Below are positions 24,632-60,371 of a stretch of DNA of 64,000 nt, piece by piece. Both the position numbers and the translations under genes were made by a program. Each line of letters opens with the position of its first letter. The first letter of the stretch is position 1. The notes under the pieces were generated by a model, which ran no database searches, was not told the origin of the DNA, and worked only from the letters and a program-made list of their open reading frames with translations. Source of the DNA: a virus (lineage: Duplodnaviria; Caudoviricetes); the IMG/VR virus record IMGVR_UViG_3300027996_003878; one strand, 5' to 3'.

Positions 24632-25210
24632 TTATAAATACAAACCTAAAGCTTTGGATACTGATTGCTCAATCGTCTCCTTATTGTAACCAACAATATA
24701 ACCCTTAACCTTCATATCTCTGCCTATCACAACAAATGTTGGCCAACCGCGAACTCGCCAGCCATCATGCCCTTTTGTCTTAAGCAAAGCATAACTTCCC
24801 AGCAATACAGGCTCTTTTATCTTAAACCCCTCCGCCCAATGCTTAAGATATTTTTGATTTAGAGGAGACCACCCATCACCATCGGCAAGTATAGTCAAAT
24901 ATGAAAAGCCATATCGCTTATACTTATTTCTAGTAGATGTGACATCTTTAGCGGCAATTTTACAGACATAGCACCAGCCCGCGCTAAAATCTAATAGGAT
25001 GACCTGCCTATAATGTTTATATAGAGAGAGGGTATTTCCATTTTGGTCTTGCAGCGTGAAATCACAAGCAATATCCCCCACTTCATATCCACATCTATCT
25101 GACTCAAACTCATAATTATTATCATAATTAAAATTATTGAAATAATTTGAGCTGCATCTAGATAATAAAATAATAAAAAATAAAGTAAAAAATAATTTAA
25201 TTAAATTCAT
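24632..25210 (-). CDS. TlpA/ResA-like thioredoxin-fold protein with hydrophobic N-terminus
   Basis: 192 aa; DFTLQDQNG..VILLDFSAGWCYVC and GWPTFVVIG (cis-Pro loop); N-terminal signal/lipoprotein-like segment ending LSRC. Confidence 0.8.
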   Translation of the reverse strand: MNLIKLFFTLFFIILLSRCSSNYFNNFNYDNNYEFESDRCGYEVGDIACDFTLQDQNGNTLSLYKHYRQVILLDFSAGWCYVCKIAAKDVTSTRNKYKRYGFSYLTILADGDGWSPLNQKYLKHWAEGFKIKEPVLLGSYALLKTKGHDGWRVRGWPTFVVIGRDMKVKGYIVGYNKETIEQSVSKALGLYL

Positions 25211-25246: not shown

Positions 25247-25591
25247 CTAGATACTAAAAGACTCACCGCAGCCGCAAGAAGATCTGCTATCAGAATTAAC
25301 AAATTCAAACCCTTGATATTTTAAAGTTTTTTTCCAATTTAAAACAACACCATTTAAAAATAAAATACTTTTTTTATCACAGTAAACATAAAAATTTTTA
25401 CTATTAAATTGAAATTCAAAAACAATATCTTTATCTGTCGCACTTTTATCATCAAATTCAATGATATAACGAAAGCCGGAGCAGCCCCCACCCTTTACCC
25501 CGACTCTTAAAGCGCCCGAATTTCTTTCTTCCAGCTTTTTAGAAACCATTTCAATAGCTGATTCAGTTAAATTAAAAGTATACTCATTCAT
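25247..25591 (-). CDS. iscA: A-type Fe-S carrier (IscA/HesB family)
   Basis: 114 aa; LRVGVKGGGCSGFRY and CGCGESF with all three conserved Cys; overlaps the iscU stop by 8 nt. Confidence 0.92.
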   Translation of the reverse strand: MNEYTFNLTESAIEMVSKKLEERNSGALRVGVKGGGCSGFRYIIEFDDKSATDKDIVFEFQFNSKNFYVYCDKKSILFLNGVVLNWKKTLKYQGFEFVNSDSRSSCGCGESFSI

Positions 25592-26474
25592 TTTTGCTTT
25601 CTAGTAACCCTAACGCTTTTTGTTTGTTTTTATAATTATTAATCGCTGACTTAATTGCATCTTCAGCAAGAACTGAACAATGTATCTTGACTGGGGGTAA
25701 ATTCAACTCATCAACAATATCTATATTTTTAATGCTTTCAGCTTCTTGCAAGGTTTTACCTTTTAACCATTCAGTGACTAAGGAACTAGACGCTATAGCA
25801 GACCCGCATCCAAAAGTTTTATACTTGGCATCTTCAATTATGCCATCATCATTTACCTTAATCTGAAGCCTCATGACATCACCACAATTGTGAACAAATA
25901 TCCCCTTATGCTCGCTATCTGAAACTTTAGTTATAATAGAAAAATTTGATAAAGGCTCTACTGTTAAACAATAAACATCGCGCCTACCTGCCGGAATCAC
26001 TTCAATCACCTTAGGGCTAGAGCTGAATATTTCTTGCTTCAACATTCCCTTTTCAAAGCTTCGCGTAAATGGCATTAATCTTATATTTTTAGAATCAGCC
26101 GCTTTAACCCACCGGTTAGCTATATCACTTCTTGTCCTTATTAAATGATCCGTAGTACATTCAAGGAATGAGCCATTATCTAAAATCAACTTTACGCACT
26201 CAGCGCTCTCTTTTGTTAATCTGGGCAAATATCCATTAGAAATAACCACACCATCGTCATCTGAATAAGAATAAACAGAGGTATTTTTTTTTAATTCAGA
26301 TAATTGTTTTATTGAAATAACATCTTTATTTCGAGGCACTGCAACTAAAGTATCGCCAACAAGGCAAGCCGGAGAGCCAACCAAACCTGTACCAACATTA
26401 GAGTTATCTTTATCTAAAGTACCAACATTTCTTGGATTTTCAAAATGATCAATTACCTTTTTTGAATAGCTCAT
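25584..26474 (-). CDS. iscU: Fe-S scaffold IscU interrupted by a mini-intein
   Basis: N-extein MSYSKKVIDHFENPRNVG...GLVGSPA, C-extein CGDVMRLQIKV..KTFGCGSAIASSS..LPPVKIHCSVLAEDAIK. Spliced length is 136 aa. Confidence 0.95.
   Translation of the reverse strand: MSYSKKVIDHFENPRNVGTLDKDNSNVGTGLVGSPACLVGDTLVAVPRNKDVISIKQLSELKKNTSVYSYSDDDGVVISNGYLPRLTKESAECVKLILDNGSFLECTTDHLIRTRSDIANRWVKAADSKNIRLMPFTRSFEKGMLKQEIFSSSPKVIEVIPAGRRDVYCLTVEPLSNFSIITKVSDSEHKGIFVHNCGDVMRLQIKVNDDGIIEDAKYKTFGCGSAIASSSLVTEWLKGKTLQEAESIKNIDIVDELNLPPVKIHCSVLAEDAIKSAINNYKNKQKALGLLESKNE
25887..26366 (-). mobile_element. Mini-intein (160 aa, no homing endonuclease) in iscU
   Basis: Block A CLVGDTLV (Cys codon 26364-26366), block B ECTTDH, block F DVYCLTV..NF, block G GIFVHN ending at 25887, +1 residue Cys. 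Confidence 0.93.
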
Positions 26475-28265: not shown

Positions 28266-28505
28266 TCACTTTATTACAACAACATCAATGGCCTTGTCTC
28301 GCCCTTCGTTGTTTTGCCCAATGCTAAATTCAACTTCATCTTCAGCTTTTAACGACTTAAACCCTTCACACTTTATATCTGAAAAATGAACAAATATGTC
28401 ATCCAATTTATTACCATCAGCATCTGTTCTCGATATAAACCCATAGCCAGCCTTTACATTAAACCAAACTACCTTACCCTTATATGTAGCACTTTCTTCC
28501 GACAT
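28266..28505 (-). CDS. csp: Cold-shock domain protein
   Basis: 79 aa; GKVVWFN.KAGYGFI (RNP1), IFVHFSDI (RNP2), GFKSL..EDEVEF. Confidence 0.93.
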   Translation of the reverse strand: MSEESATYKGKVVWFNVKAGYGFISRTDADGNKLDDIFVHFSDIKCEGFKSLKAEDEVEFSIGQNNEGRDKAIDVVVIK

Positions 28506-28848: not shown

Positions 28849-29943
28849 TTACTTTTTTAAATATATTTTAGACAATCTATCTACAAGATATAACGCATCA
28901 CTTGAGTCATACTGACCAAATGTAGATATTCTCAGGTAATCTTCGCCATTGCTTGGCCTTCCCAATTTTTGCATCAATGGGCTGCCTCCAGTGTACATGG
29001 AGCCACAAGCTGAGCCTAAACCAACATAAATTTTACTCTCAGATAACTTTAAAAGTAAGTCCATCCCTCCACCAGGAAACGGAGTGCGCACGAATGTTGT
29101 ATTTGGCGAGCGATTACTATCACTTCCTATGACTTCGAAACCAAGCTCTTTAAGGCTTTTCTCTAAAGTCATTTGAAAGTTACGCATTTTTTCCCTTCTA
29201 TATTCTAAAGTTGACAACGCCTCTTCTAAAGCAACCGCAGTGCCAACCACGCTGGCCACATCAGGAGTTCCGGGGCGATCAAGAAAATACCTACTACCAA
29301 GGCCAAAAGACCTCCATAAGTCTGTGTCTTTTATGTATATAAACCCAGCCATAAATCCTCCAAACTTATGGCCAGCAAAAACCCCAATATCTATATTATA
29401 ATCCGAAACTTTAAAAGGAACCTTGCCAATCGTTTGACTTAAATCAGATAACAAAAAGCTATCATTAAATTTTTCCAATGGTTGAATAATACCAGTTTCA
29501 TTTTGAACATGAATACAGCACACCCTTGAGCCCTTGGGTATGTTTTGATTTTTTAATACCCCATCTTTATCTACAGCCAACTCTCTTTTATTTCTGTAAT
29601 CCGCCATATAAGCGTCAAAAGACTGACTCATAGCAGGGTGTTCAGTGGGAGAGATAAATGCATTTTCCCAACAACCACTAGAATATCTTAAAATCTTACA
29701 TGCCCACTCGCAAGCCTGAGTGCAAGTTGATGTAATTACAATATTACTCGGACTTGCCGCGCCTATAGACTTTGCTATACGCGAACGAGCGTCCTCTAAC
29801 TTCATCGCAGCATCACGACCTATAGCAGAAGGAGAAAGGGGATGACCGTGACCAGCACGCGAAGAGATAAAGTCAGCATAGGCTGAAAGCGCTTTTTCAC
29901 TCAAAGGCACGTGAGCATTTGCATCTAAAAATAATTCTTTCAT
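28849..29943 (-). CDS. iscS: Cysteine desulfurase (IscS/NifS class V PLP enzyme), divergent
   Basis: 364 aa; LFLDANA, TEHPAM, HVQNETGIIQP, GHKFGG (PLP Lys), RPGTPDV, GSAC (catalytic Cys), LRIS. Confidence 0.88.
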   Translation of the reverse strand: MKELFLDANAHVPLSEKALSAYADFISSRAGHGHPLSPSAIGRDAAMKLEDARSRIAKSIGAASPSNIVITSTCTQACEWACKILRYSSGCWENAFISPTEHPAMSQSFDAYMADYRNKRELAVDKDGVLKNQNIPKGSRVCCIHVQNETGIIQPLEKFNDSFLLSDLSQTIGKVPFKVSDYNIDIGVFAGHKFGGFMAGFIYIKDTDLWRSFGLGSRYFLDRPGTPDVASVVGTAVALEEALSTLEYRREKMRNFQMTLEKSLKELGFEVIGSDSNRSPNTTFVRTPFPGGGMDLLLKLSESKIYVGLGSACGSMYTGGSPLMQKLGRPSNGEDYLRISTFGQYDSSDALYLVDRLSKIYLKK

Positions 29944-59078: not shown

Positions 59079-60371
59079 ATGAAAAAAACTTATATACTAG
59101 ACACTTCAATTATTATAAATGACCCAAATTGCTTAAATAGCCTCAAAGGAAATCAAATTGTTATACCAATAGATGTACTTAACGAGCTGGACAAACTTAA
59201 AACCTTTCAAGATCAAGTGGCAAAAAACGCCAGATTATTTATCCGTAAACTAGACGAATTAATAAAATTAAATCAAAGTAATAATTTAAAAATAGATGAA
59301 GATACATCATTAGAAATTGATACAGAAAAATACAATAACAAATTTGAAGATGAGGACATAATAGATAATAAGATTATATCTTGTGCATTTTATCAAAATT
59401 TAAAAAAAGAAAATGTAATATTACTTTCAAATGACATCAATTTAAGAGTTAGAGCTACCGCGTTTAAAATTAAATCAGAGGGATACAAGAAAAAAAGTAA
59501 TAACGCGACTGATTTATATAAGGGACACAGAGTTATACAAGACGACGAGCTTGGTAAAATATTATGTGAAGAAAAATACTTAACCATTTCAGATTATGAA
59601 GATCTAGAATCACTTAACCCTAATGAATTTGTGAATTTCGAAACATCAAGCGGTAATGGCATTTGCATCGGAAGAAGAATAGAGGATGCGCTTTGTATGA
59701 GAAAGCCGTCAGTCCTATGGGGGCTAAAGTCCAAAAATAGAGAGCAGGCATACGCTACTGATTTGCTTATGGATCCATCAATTCCATTAGTTACACTTAC
59801 GGGTAAAGCCGGAACTGGAAAGACAGTACTAACTGTAGCAGCTGGTCTCGATTCGGTCATAAATAAAAAAGCTTACAATCAATTGATTGTCTATAAGCCC
59901 ATGGAACCTGTCGGCAGAGAGGTAGGATACCTGCCAGGCAATTTGGAAGAAAAATTAGACCCTTGGGCTGAAGCATTAAAAGACAGTTTAAACTTTTTAA
60001 CATCCTCCGGCAATGGAAGCGGCAGAAAAAGCAGCTGGAAAGACAAGTTAAGCCAATACACCGATCAAATTACATTCGAAGCTCTTACATACATTAGAGG
60101 GCGAAGCATTACTAATGCTTACATAATTATTGATGAATGCCAAAACACAACAAAAGAGCAGATTAAGACTGTTTTAACAAGAGTTGGAATGAATTCAAAA
60201 ATAGTACTACTAGGGGATATTGATCAAATAGACCACAGCTATCTTGACGCTGTTAATAACGGTTTGACTTACACCATAGAAGCGTTTAAAGATTCAAATT
60301 TATCGGGGCATGTGACGCTTGAAAGGGGTGAAAGAAGCGATTTGGCCACAGAAGCAGCATTAAGATTATAA
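59079..60371 (+). CDS. phoH: PIN-PhoH (PhoH2-like) ATPase
   Basis: N-terminal PIN YILDTSIII..ELDKLK..DNKII..LLSNDINLR; GKAGTGKT Walker A; YIRGRSI, IIIDECQN, LGDIDQID. Confidence 0.92.
   Translation: MKKTYILDTSIIINDPNCLNSLKGNQIVIPIDVLNELDKLKTFQDQVAKNARLFIRKLDELIKLNQSNNLKIDEDTSLEIDTEKYNNKFEDEDIIDNKIISCAFYQNLKKENVILLSNDINLRVRATAFKIKSEGYKKKSNNATDLYKGHRVIQDDELGKILCEEKYLTISDYEDLESLNPNEFVNFETSSGNGICIGRRIEDALCMRKPSVLWGLKSKNREQAYATDLLMDPSIPLVTLTGKAGTGKTVLTVAAGLDSVINKKAYNQLIVYKPMEPVGREVGYLPGNLEEKLDPWAEALKDSLNFLTSSGNGSGRKSSWKDKLSQYTDQITFEALTYIRGRSITNAYIIIDECQNTTKEQIKTVLTRVGMNSKIVLLGDIDQIDHSYLDAVNNGLTYTIEAFKDSNLSGHVTLERGERSDLATEAALRL

What the first reader, a model, noticed from the sequence alone, without database searches (positions are those of the whole stretch)
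25584..26474. Mini-intein inserted exactly at the first Fe-S ligand cysteine of a phage IscU
Seen: a 160-aa insertion (CLVGDT...TTDH...VYCLTV...GIFVHN) splits GSPA|CGDVM, so the intein's +1 nucleophile is the Cys equivalent to E. coli IscU Cys37. The intein has no room or motif for a homing endonuclease. Established: Cys37 ligates the nascent cluster; inteins favour conserved active-site positions; the M. tuberculosis SufB intein shows redox/metal-sensitive splicing. Inference: the scaffold is inactive until spliced, and the Cys1, Cys+1 and block-F Cys could make splicing a redox or metal switch for phage Fe-S assembly. I do not recall an IscU intein, but cannot verify novelty.
Basis: partly seen in the sequence, partly recalled or inferred. 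Interest (0 to 1): 0.88.

Follow-up and report, generated by a model that had tools for sequence, protein, structure and literature searches.

The report
Mini-intein in marine jumbo-phage IscU
The iron-sulfur scaffold gene (iscU) of an uncultured marine jumbo phage is interrupted, directly before its first cluster-binding cysteine, by a genuine self-splicing mini-intein that has lost its homing nuclease. It belongs to a large viral intein family that I could not find described in any paper, and nothing here shows that it acts as a redox or metal switch.

Summary
ORF 25584..26474 (-), 296 aa, is an IscU/NifU_N protein (Pfam E 2.8e-49). A 160-aa insert (aa 37-196; window 25887..26366) splits it between residues that align to 36 and 37 of solved IscU.

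The insert has every class-1 intein feature: Cys1, block B TxxH, terminal His-Asn and Cys+1. It models as a compact HINT fold (pLDDT 93.9; TM 0.76/0.86 to the Npu DnaE intein) with no endonuclease.

It is not unique. 86 of the 120 best database hits are IscU proteins with an intein at the same site. They are either minis or forms carrying an HNH endonuclease, and they sit on phage-like contigs and giant-virus MAGs. Six also carry a second intein before the second ligand Cys.

Mini and HNH forms are interleaved on the intein tree. The window's nearest exteins are intein-free viral IscUs. Both fit a mobile selfish element that lost its nuclease.

The switch idea is untested. In its favour, block F position 4 is Cys in all 16 members of the window's clade. 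Against it, that position is Asp or Thr in most of the rest of the family.

No paper in the searched library describes an IscU/NifU intein. This scan had already met such inteins at least seven times on other DNA. I class it as a new member of a known kind, of moderate interest.

The parts
25584..26474 (-). iscU precursor gene (296 aa plus stop): N-extein, mini-intein, C-extein
   Evidence: ORF list and translation. Pfam NifU_N E 2.8e-49 in two stretches. The identical gene is on at least 24 metagenomic contigs.
26367..26474 (-). N-extein, aa 1-36, ending GSPA
   Evidence: Aligns to residues 1-36 of IscU chain 2l4x. Coordinates.
25887..26366 (-). Class-1 mini-intein, 160 aa (protein aa 37-196). 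Key residues: Cys1, block B T71-x-x-H74, block F Cys133 (position F:4), His159-Asn160.
   Evidence: Profile hits on PDB inteins, best E 4e-15. AF2 pLDDT 93.9. Foldseek: NpuDnaE 4kl5 TM 0.76/0.86, then Mtu RecA and Ssp DnaB mini-inteins. Family conservation: C1 52/52, T71 51/52, H74 52/52, N160 52/52. No HNH or LAGLIDADG.
25584..25886 (-). C-extein, aa 197-296 plus stop. It starts with Cys+1 (the IscU Cys37 equivalent) and contains the Asp39, Cys63, His105 and Cys106 equivalents.
   Evidence: Aligns to residues 37-127 of 2l4x.
25247..25591 (-). A-type carrier (IscA/HesB-like, 114 aa). Its start overlaps the iscU stop by 8 nt.
   Evidence: Pfam Fe-S_biosyn E 4.3e-13. An Fe-S_biosyn (IscA-type) gene lies directly beside iscU in the related intein-bearing contigs examined, downstream in the first three and upstream; none is called on the double-intein contig.
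24632..25210 (-). Redoxin / AhpC-TSA-type thiol-disulfide oxidoreductase (192 aa) with a hydrophobic N-terminal leader and a WCYVC motif
   Evidence: Pfam AhpC-TSA E 8.5e-9 and Redoxin E 9.4e-9. The leader and the motif are read from the translation.
28849..29943 (-). Class-V aminotransferase (364 aa), likely an IscS/NifS-type cysteine desulfurase, with GHKFGG and GSACGS motifs
   Evidence: Pfam Aminotran_5 E 2.6e-28. Motifs read from the translation. The desulfurase role is an inference.

Best explanation
The insert is a canonical class-1 mini-intein in the iscU gene of an uncultured marine jumbo myovirus of about 296 kb. That phage carries its own small Fe-S assembly set: an IscS-like desulfurase, IscU, an IscA-type carrier and a redoxin.

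The gene is translated as a 296-aa precursor. The HINT domain then excises itself in four steps. Cys1 makes an N-S acyl shift, the N-extein is transferred to Cys+1, Asn160 cyclises, and an S-N shift follows. The product is a 136-aa IscU in which the joining residue is the first cluster ligand.

The element belongs to a lineage of HNH-endonuclease inteins that home into this highly conserved site of viral iscU genes. The window's copy has lost about 200 residues of endonuclease and is now an immobile passenger. It is kept because imprecise deletion would destroy the scaffold's active site.

Splicing is most likely constitutive.

Shown here: intein identity, insertion site, fold, family, loss of the nuclease.

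Inferred: that it splices, that the precursor is inactive as a scaffold, and that it is selfish rather than regulatory.
For: - Junctions and catalytic residues are intact.
- The extein halves align without a gap to solved IscU, 1-36 and 37-127.
- The HINT fold is confirmed by profile search, by model and by Foldseek.
- The precursor model has both domains confident, pLDDT 90.8.
- 86 of the 120 best hits carry an intein at the same site, all with Cys1, terminal Asn and Cys+1.
- The nine larger inserts scanned all match HNH_3 (five above Pfam's cutoff, four below it), and one also has NUMOD3.
- The window's intein lies in a clade of 16 with SH-aLRT support 100: 8 HNH forms, 7 minis and 1 intermediate. 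Size classes are interleaved, and the starred branches alone force at least 6 changes.
- Against the HNH relative P0014, residues 1-102 and 128-160 align. About 211 nuclease residues are replaced by about 25.
- On the extein tree, intein presence needs 22 changes, at least 5 of them forced by supported branches. The window's nearest exteins are intein-free IMG/VR IscUs.
- GC content of intein and exteins is alike, 35.2% versus 34.5%. This suggests a long-resident element.
- A second strain at 99.3% identity keeps the intein in frame, with only conservative changes.
- Phage hallmark genes lie in the window. Relatives sit in phage-like or giant-virus contexts.
Against: - Splicing has not been observed for this or any IscU intein.
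- Pfam's Intein_splicing model scores below its gathering cutoff on this copy (20.4-23.1 bits against 35.8), although some relatives pass.
- The window's intein has a long terminal branch, 0.93. That could mean decay.
- Block F position 4 is Cys instead of the usual Asp throughout its clade. The chemistry or control of splicing may therefore differ from textbook class 1.
- The share of 86/120 is not a prevalence. The search admits only proteins of 163-518 aa, which excludes most intein-free IscUs of normal size.
Confidence: 0.8

Rival explanations
1. The intein is a conditional splicing switch. It is retained because its thiols (Cys1, Cys+1 and the clade-invariant block F Cys133) form a reversible disulfide or bind a metal. 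Mature phage IscU would then be made only when conditions in the infected cell suit Fe-S assembly.
For: - Block F position 4 is Cys in 16/16 members of the window's clade.
- That position lies next to both splice junctions in studied inteins (PMC2807308).
- A block F Cys forms a stress-induced disulfide that blocks splicing in the M. smegmatis DnaBi1 intein (PMC6195587).
- There is a precedent for an intein in another Fe-S assembly protein, SufB (PMC8891592).
- Inteins occupy two different ligand cysteines of IscU.
- The nuclease-free intein is kept in two strains.
Against: - No experiment exists.
- Across the 86 same-site inteins the block F position is Asp (33) or Thr (29) far more often than Cys. 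The regex scores 14 as Cys. Four more clade members that it left unscored also show Cys by eye, giving 18.
- Cys1 and Cys+1 are explained by splicing chemistry and by IscU function alone.
- Intein presence is patchy, and the window's nearest exteins lack it. The host gene therefore works well without it.
- A site before a conserved Cys is what any Cys+1-dependent homing intein needs.
Confidence: 0.13
2. The intein is degenerate and does not splice, so the phage iscU is a disrupted, non-functional gene.
For: - Long terminal branch of this intein.
- Sub-threshold Pfam score.
- The homing nuclease is lost.
Against: - All splicing residues are present: C1, T71, H74, H159, N160, C+1.
- The reading frame is intact in every contig and in a diverged strain with only conservative changes.
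- The model is a complete, confident HINT fold.
- The downstream iscA overlaps the stop codon, as in a working operon.
Confidence: 0.05
3. The intein splices by a block F nucleophile route related to class 3 rather than by the class-1 route, even though it has Cys1.
For: - Cys at block F position 4 is invariant in the clade.
- A few inteins with the class-3 triplet are known to begin with Ser or Cys (PMC2807308).
Against: - The class-3 signature is not met. Position B:12 is Ile76, not Trp, and G:5 is Val158, not Thr.
- Residue 1 is a nucleophile.
- Residue +1 is Cys, not Ser or Thr (sequence).
Confidence: 0.02

Closest known systems
Mycobacterium tuberculosis SufB (Pps1) intein
   Same: An intein interrupting an essential Fe-S cluster assembly protein, with Cys1/Cys+1 class-1 chemistry (PMC8891592). 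It is the standard example cited for stress-sensitive splicing in Fe-S biogenesis; that last point is from my own knowledge.
   Different: The host protein and pathway differ (SufB of SUF, not IscU of ISC). It is a cellular gene, not a viral one. The SufB intein is large, with an endonuclease domain. It does not sit at a cluster-ligand cysteine.
Engineered and natural mini-inteins of known structure (Npu DnaE, Ssp DnaB mini, Mtu RecA splicing domain)
   Same: The same HINT fold and size class. Foldseek TM 0.71-0.77 by query and 0.80-0.86 by target. Profile E 4e-15 to 1e-10.
   Different: 15-23% sequence identity. Different host genes. Block F position 4 is Cys here, where Asp is a very common residue in standard inteins (PMC2807308).
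HNH-endonuclease inteins at the same IscU site in uncultured phages (e.g. P0004, P0014, P0007)
   Same: Identical insertion point, GAPA|C...N|CGDVM. 44-55% identity in the HINT parts. The DVYC block F motif is shared. They fall in the same supported clade.
   Different: They keep a nuclease module of about 140-210 aa (HNH_3, in one case with NUMOD3), which the window's copy lacks.
M. smegmatis DnaBi1 class-3 intein (oxidative stress sensor)
   Same: It has a Cys at block F position 4. In DnaBi1 that Cys forms a disulfide under H2O2 and blocks splicing (PMC6195587). This is the best precedent for how a block F Cys could make splicing conditional.
   Different: DnaBi1 lacks an N-terminal nucleophile and has the Trp-Cys-Thr triplet. 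The window's intein has Cys1 and lacks both the Trp and the Thr.
Marine viral Fe-S assembly auxiliary genes (IscU and A-type carrier in environmental viral genomes)
   Same: An IscU plus an A-type carrier encoded by marine tailed phages (PMC5332604). The window has the same pair.
   Different: That paper mentions no intein. The window's phage also carries a desulfurase-like gene and a redoxin.

Membership tests
Class-1 intein (HINT splicing domain) | Cys or Ser as the first residue | tested here: met
   Cys37 of the precursor is intein Cys1. It is Cys in all 86 family members at this site.
Class-1 intein (HINT splicing domain) | Block B Thr-x-x-His | tested here: met
   T71-T-D-H74. Thr in 51/52 and His in 52/52 aligned minis.
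Class-1 intein (HINT splicing domain) | C-terminal (His)-Asn followed by a Cys, Ser or Thr +1 nucleophile | tested here: met
   His159-Asn160 followed by Cys197. Asn and Cys+1 are invariant in all 86.
Class-1 intein (HINT splicing domain) | HINT fold | tested here: met
   AF2 pLDDT 93.9 and pTM 0.89. The top 50 Foldseek PDB matches are all HINT-fold chains: 44 inteins, five bacterial or ciliate intein-like domains and one Hedgehog autoprocessing domain; best is 4kl5 at TM 0.76/0.86.
Class-1 intein (HINT splicing domain) | In-frame insertion in a host protein whose intein-free homologues are contiguous across the junction | tested here: met
   Residues 1-36 and 197-287 align to 1-36 and 37-127 of 2l4x. 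Intein-free viral IscUs are 66-82% identical to the exteins, apart from one more distant locus at 38%.
Class-1 intein (HINT splicing domain) | Pfam Intein_splicing (PF14890) above the gathering score | tested here: not met
   20.4 and 23.1 bits against a cutoff of 35.8. Among the nine relatives scanned, five pass (40.9-63.0 bits, e.g. P0014 at 58.8 and P0054 at 63.0) and four do not. This reflects a limit of the model's sensitivity, not a missing feature.
Class-1 intein (HINT splicing domain) | Demonstrated protein splicing | not testable with these tools
   This needs expression of the precursor.
Intein with homing endonuclease | HNH or LAGLIDADG domain between blocks B and F | tested here: not met
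   No such Pfam hit on the 160-aa insert. The model is a compact all-beta domain. The region that is HNH in P0014 is replaced by about 25 residues. It is therefore a mini-intein.
Class-3 intein | No N-terminal nucleophile, together with the Trp(B:12)-Cys(F:4)-Thr(G:5) triplet | tested here: not met
   Residue 1 is Cys, B:12 is Ile76 and G:5 is Val158. Only the F:4 Cys is present (definition from PMC2807308).
IscU / NifU_N Fe-S scaffold | NifU_N domain with the three ligand Cys plus the Asp39 and His105 equivalents | tested here: met
   Pfam E 2.8e-49. The CGD, GCGS and IHCS stretches all align to 2l4x.
Conditional (redox- or metal-gated) intein | Splicing rate changes reversibly with oxidant, reductant or metal | not testable with these tools
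   There is only indirect sequence evidence: the F:4 Cys is invariant in the clade (16/16) but not in the family.

The most novel reading that the evidence does not exclude
In this phage clade the invariant block F Cys, which replaces the usual Asp next to both splice junctions, works with Cys1 and the ligand Cys+1 as a thiol trap (a disulfide or a metal or Fe-S site). The viral IscU scaffold would then be released only under suitable redox or iron conditions during infection. This would be a post-translational gate on virus-driven Fe-S assembly, and the double-intein IscUs would be a two-key version of it.
Probability: 0.12. Interest if true: 0.75.

Novelty: new member of a known kind. Interest (0 to 1): 0.4.

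Why it matters
Inteins are well known, and they are common in phage replication and nucleotide-metabolism genes. A viral Fe-S scaffold as host, with the intein placed exactly at a cluster ligand, appears not to be described in the searched literature, yet it is frequent in marine viral sequence.

The system is compact: a 296-aa precursor and a nuclease-free 160-aa intein. It is a natural test case for whether inteins at active-site cysteines of metal-handling proteins are only parasites or also sensors.

It also supplies a set of closely related mini and HNH forms for studying nuclease loss, and a clade with an unusual Cys at block F position 4.

For annotation, IscU genes of about 290-520 aa in viromes should be read as intein-bearing, not as fusions or novel domains.

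Tried and rejected
- **Whole-genome search:** no genome is held for this window. I could not look for other inteins or Fe-S genes outside the 64 kb. Within the window, the family profile finds only this intein.
- **Cultured and deposited phages:** tblastn against 50,697 records found only intein-free iscU, plus distant RNR inteins.
- **Empty-site test:** a 36-nt junction of the intein-free allele had 0 matches in metagenome contigs and viral contigs. The control 36-mer of the occupied junction also had 0 matches. Those collections do not serve this phage, so the result says nothing.
- **Reads:** contigs of four seawater runs were laid on the gene. None joins across the intein. These are contigs only, so rare intein-free alleles would be missed.
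- **Expression:** no RNA holder is listed. This gives no evidence on expression.
- **Selection test:** nine contigs carry the gene with zero nucleotide differences. The one variant strain has only six differences. No dN/dS estimate is possible.
- **Profile search of 1.84 billion representatives:** 13,506 hits, but the top ranks are giant multi-intein proteins whose scores add up. This is uninformative about the IscU lineage.
- **Cysteine distances:** I could not measure them because model coordinates are not returned.
- **Class-3 mechanism:** considered and rejected on the missing Trp and Thr.
- **Chance or frameshift artefact:** rejected because both extein halves are in one frame, and because of the family evidence.

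Full report
**What is there.** The minus-strand ORF 25584..26474 encodes 296 residues. Pfam finds NifU_N in two separated stretches, E 2.8e-49. A script places a 160-residue insert at residues 37-196 (window 25887..26366). It runs from CLVGDT to GIFVHN and lies between an N-extein ending GSPA and a C-extein starting CGDVM. phmmer against PDB sequences aligns residues 1-36 to residues 1-36 of IscU chain 2l4x and residues 197-287 to 37-127. The residue after the insert is therefore the Cys37 equivalent. The alignment shows the CGD, GCGS and IHCS stretches intact, which hold the Asp39, Cys63, His105 and Cys106 equivalents.

**Is the insert an intein?** Pfam's Intein_splicing model is only sub-threshold on this copy, at 20.4-23.1 bits against a cutoff of 35.8. 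Stronger tests agree that it is.
- An alignment of 52 homologous inserts (A1) has Cys1, His74, Gly155 and Asn160 invariant. Thr6, Thr71 and Asp73 are nearly so.
- Its profile hits 50 PDB chains, nearly all inteins plus two intein-like BIL domains and one chain titled only as a hypothetical protein. The best is a DnaE intein at E 4e-15.
- The AF2 model built on that alignment has pLDDT 93.9 and pTM 0.89. It is a compact all-beta domain.
- Foldseek's top 50 PDB matches are all HINT-fold chains: 44 inteins, five bacterial or ciliate intein-like domains and one Hedgehog autoprocessing domain. NpuDnaE 4kl5 gives TM 0.76/0.86, followed by Mtu RecA and Ssp DnaB.
- A model of the whole precursor is also confident, pLDDT 90.8, with IscU elements on both sides of the HINT domain.
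- There is no HNH or LAGLIDADG match and no extra domain. It is a mini-intein.

**The organism and the neighbourhood.** The window encodes a major head protein (phrog_2522, E 7e-79), a protein with a weak, sub-threshold tail-sheath match (Phage_sheath_1C, 21.4 bits against a cutoff of 26.9), a large terminase and a PIN-PhoH protein. The identical IscU protein lies on at least 24 contigs, up to about 296 kb, from ENA, JGI and Logan samples. Sequencing runs that hold the stretch are seawater, marine and estuary metagenomes from 19 studies. This is an uncultured marine jumbo phage, most likely a myovirus if the weak sheath match is real.

iscU is followed by an A-type carrier whose start overlaps its stop codon (Fe-S_biosyn, E 4.3e-13) and by a redoxin with a hydrophobic leader. 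About 2.4 kb upstream lies a class-V aminotransferase (E 2.6e-28) with HK and SAC motifs, probably a cysteine desulfurase. Marine phages with IscU and A-type carrier genes have been described as carriers of auxiliary metabolic genes, with no mention of inteins (PMC5332604).

**The family.** The protein search returned 6,480 hits. Of the best 120, 86 are IscU proteins with an intein at exactly this site, GAP[A/E/S]|C...N|CGDV, shown both by pattern and by an HMM of intein-free IscU.
- All 86 have Cys1, a terminal Asn and Cys+1.
- Fifty-two are minis of 144-175 aa. Thirty-four are larger, 188-375 aa.
- The nine larger ones I scanned all match HNH_3, five above Pfam's cutoff and four below it. 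One also has NUMOD3.
- This share is not a prevalence. The search admits only proteins of 163-518 aa, which leaves out ordinary intein-free IscUs of about 127 aa.
- The contexts examined look viral. They have many small unannotated ORFs, an adjacent A-type carrier in four of the five, and genes such as RtcB, RNA ligase, ThyX, dCMP deaminase or a phiTE-type phage protein.
- A scan of IMG/VR with the intein alignment found three loci in giant-virus MAGs. Each has a site-a mini-intein in an IscU that carries an N-terminal extension.
- Thirteen other IMG/VR loci have intein-free IscU; twelve are 66-82% identical to the window's exteins and one is much more distant at 38%.
- No deposited phage genome in the INPHARED set has the intein.

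**Evolutionary reading.** On a tree of the HINT columns, the window's intein falls in a clade of 16 with support 100. The clade holds 8 HNH forms, 7 minis and 1 intermediate. Some pairs have nearly identical splicing domains but differ by the nuclease, for example P0007/P0008 and P0009/P0003. Over the whole tree the size class changes at least 15 times, and at least 6 of those changes are forced by well-supported branches.

Against the HNH relative P0014, residues 1-102 and 128-160 align at 44-55% identity. The intervening 211 or so residues are replaced by about 25. On a tree of the exteins, intein presence needs 22 changes, at least 5 of them forced. The window's nearest exteins are intein-free viral IscUs.

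Intein GC matches extein GC, 35.2% versus 34.5%. Together these give the classic picture of a homing intein that invades, loses its nuclease and lingers. The window's copy is at the 'lingering' stage.

A 99.3%-identical strain in two runs keeps the intein in frame. It has four conservative substitutions and one synonymous change in the intein, and one conservative change in the C-extein.

**The switch hypothesis.** Cys1 and Cys+1 are invariant, but that is expected from the chemistry of splicing and from IscU function.

The block F position is more informative. Among the 52 minis it is Asp in 27, Thr in 15, Cys in 8 and Asn in 2. In the window's clade, however, it is Cys in all 16, in the motif DVYC. 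According to PMC2807308, this position is usually Asp in standard inteins, is important at both splice junctions, and is Cys in class-3 inteins. In the class-3 M. smegmatis DnaBi1 intein, that Cys forms a disulfide under H2O2 that blocks splicing (PMC6195587).

The window's intein is not class 3. It has Cys1, Ile at B:12 and Val at G:5.

So there is a real clade-specific peculiarity that could support a thiol trap. It could equally be a neutral catalytic variant. The host gene clearly functions without any intein in close relatives. I put the switch at about 0.13.

**Novelty.** Full-text searches found no description of an intein in IscU or NifU. I searched intein with IscU, with NifU, with iron-sulfur cluster assembly plus phage, and with cluster scaffold. 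The only Fe-S assembly intein discussed is SufB. InBase could not be consulted.

Earlier notes of this scan record IscU/NifU inteins on at least seven other genomes, mostly LAGLIDADG or mini forms in uncultivated bacteria and archaea. One sits at the His-Cys ligand pair. None had a paper. I did not test those notes.

The viral HNH lineage found here, the double-intein IscUs and the DVYC clade add detail to them. The kind of element is ordinary. I class this as a new member of a known kind, of moderate interest.

Noticed in passing
Proteins P0015, P0047, P0061, P0063, P0081, P0099 (P0015 on locus L033:6001-7374): Six metagenomic viral IscUs carry two inteins. One is at the window's site, before the Cys37 equivalent. 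The second is a mini-intein of 146-174 aa at KTFG|C...HN|CGSA, directly before the second ligand Cys (Cys63 equivalent). The second inteins have Cys1, [S/T]xxH and a terminal HN. They are only distantly related to the first (profile E 1e-9 to 5e-6).
   Followed up: partly
L029:2818-3744, L030:2818-3744, L031:2854-3747 (IMG/VR, two of them giant-virus MAG contigs): On 41-52 kb IMG/VR contigs, two of them labelled giant-virus MAGs (the third is an identical gene on an unlabelled contig), IscU genes with an N-terminal extension of about 15-25 aa carry a site-a mini-intein of the largest sub-family (start CIHEDT or CIRGDT, end IIKN). The same intein site is thus used in phages and in large eukaryotic viruses.
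   Followed up: partly
window 24632..25210 (-), 25247..25591 (-), 28266..28505 (-), 28849..29943 (-): A small Fe-S assembly set sits among virion genes of the jumbo phage. It comprises an IscS-like class-V aminotransferase, IscU, an IscA-type carrier and a redoxin with a hydrophobic leader and a WCYVC motif. A cold-shock-domain protein lies between them.
   Followed up: partly
window 59079..60371 (+): A 430-aa PIN_4 plus PhoH fusion protein (Pfam E 1.3e-27 and 2.2e-46). It is the only long plus-strand gene among the ORFs of 120 aa or more in the window.
   Followed up: no
window 25841, 25925, 25937, 26023, 26050, 26124 (runs X10, X13): A second strain, 99.3% identical over 1.7 kb, occurs in other seawater runs. 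Five of its six differences in iscU fall in the intein (V184I, I180V, S151N, K142R and one synonymous). One falls in the C-extein (I212V). There are too few for a rate test, but this hints that the intein evolves faster than the exteins.
   Followed up: partly
Proteins P0006, P0012, P0013, P0108: Among the hits are tandem duplicated NifU_N proteins. One of these is from a firefly genome assembly. One further protein is an Aminotran_5-NifU_N fusion. None carries an intein.
   Followed up: no
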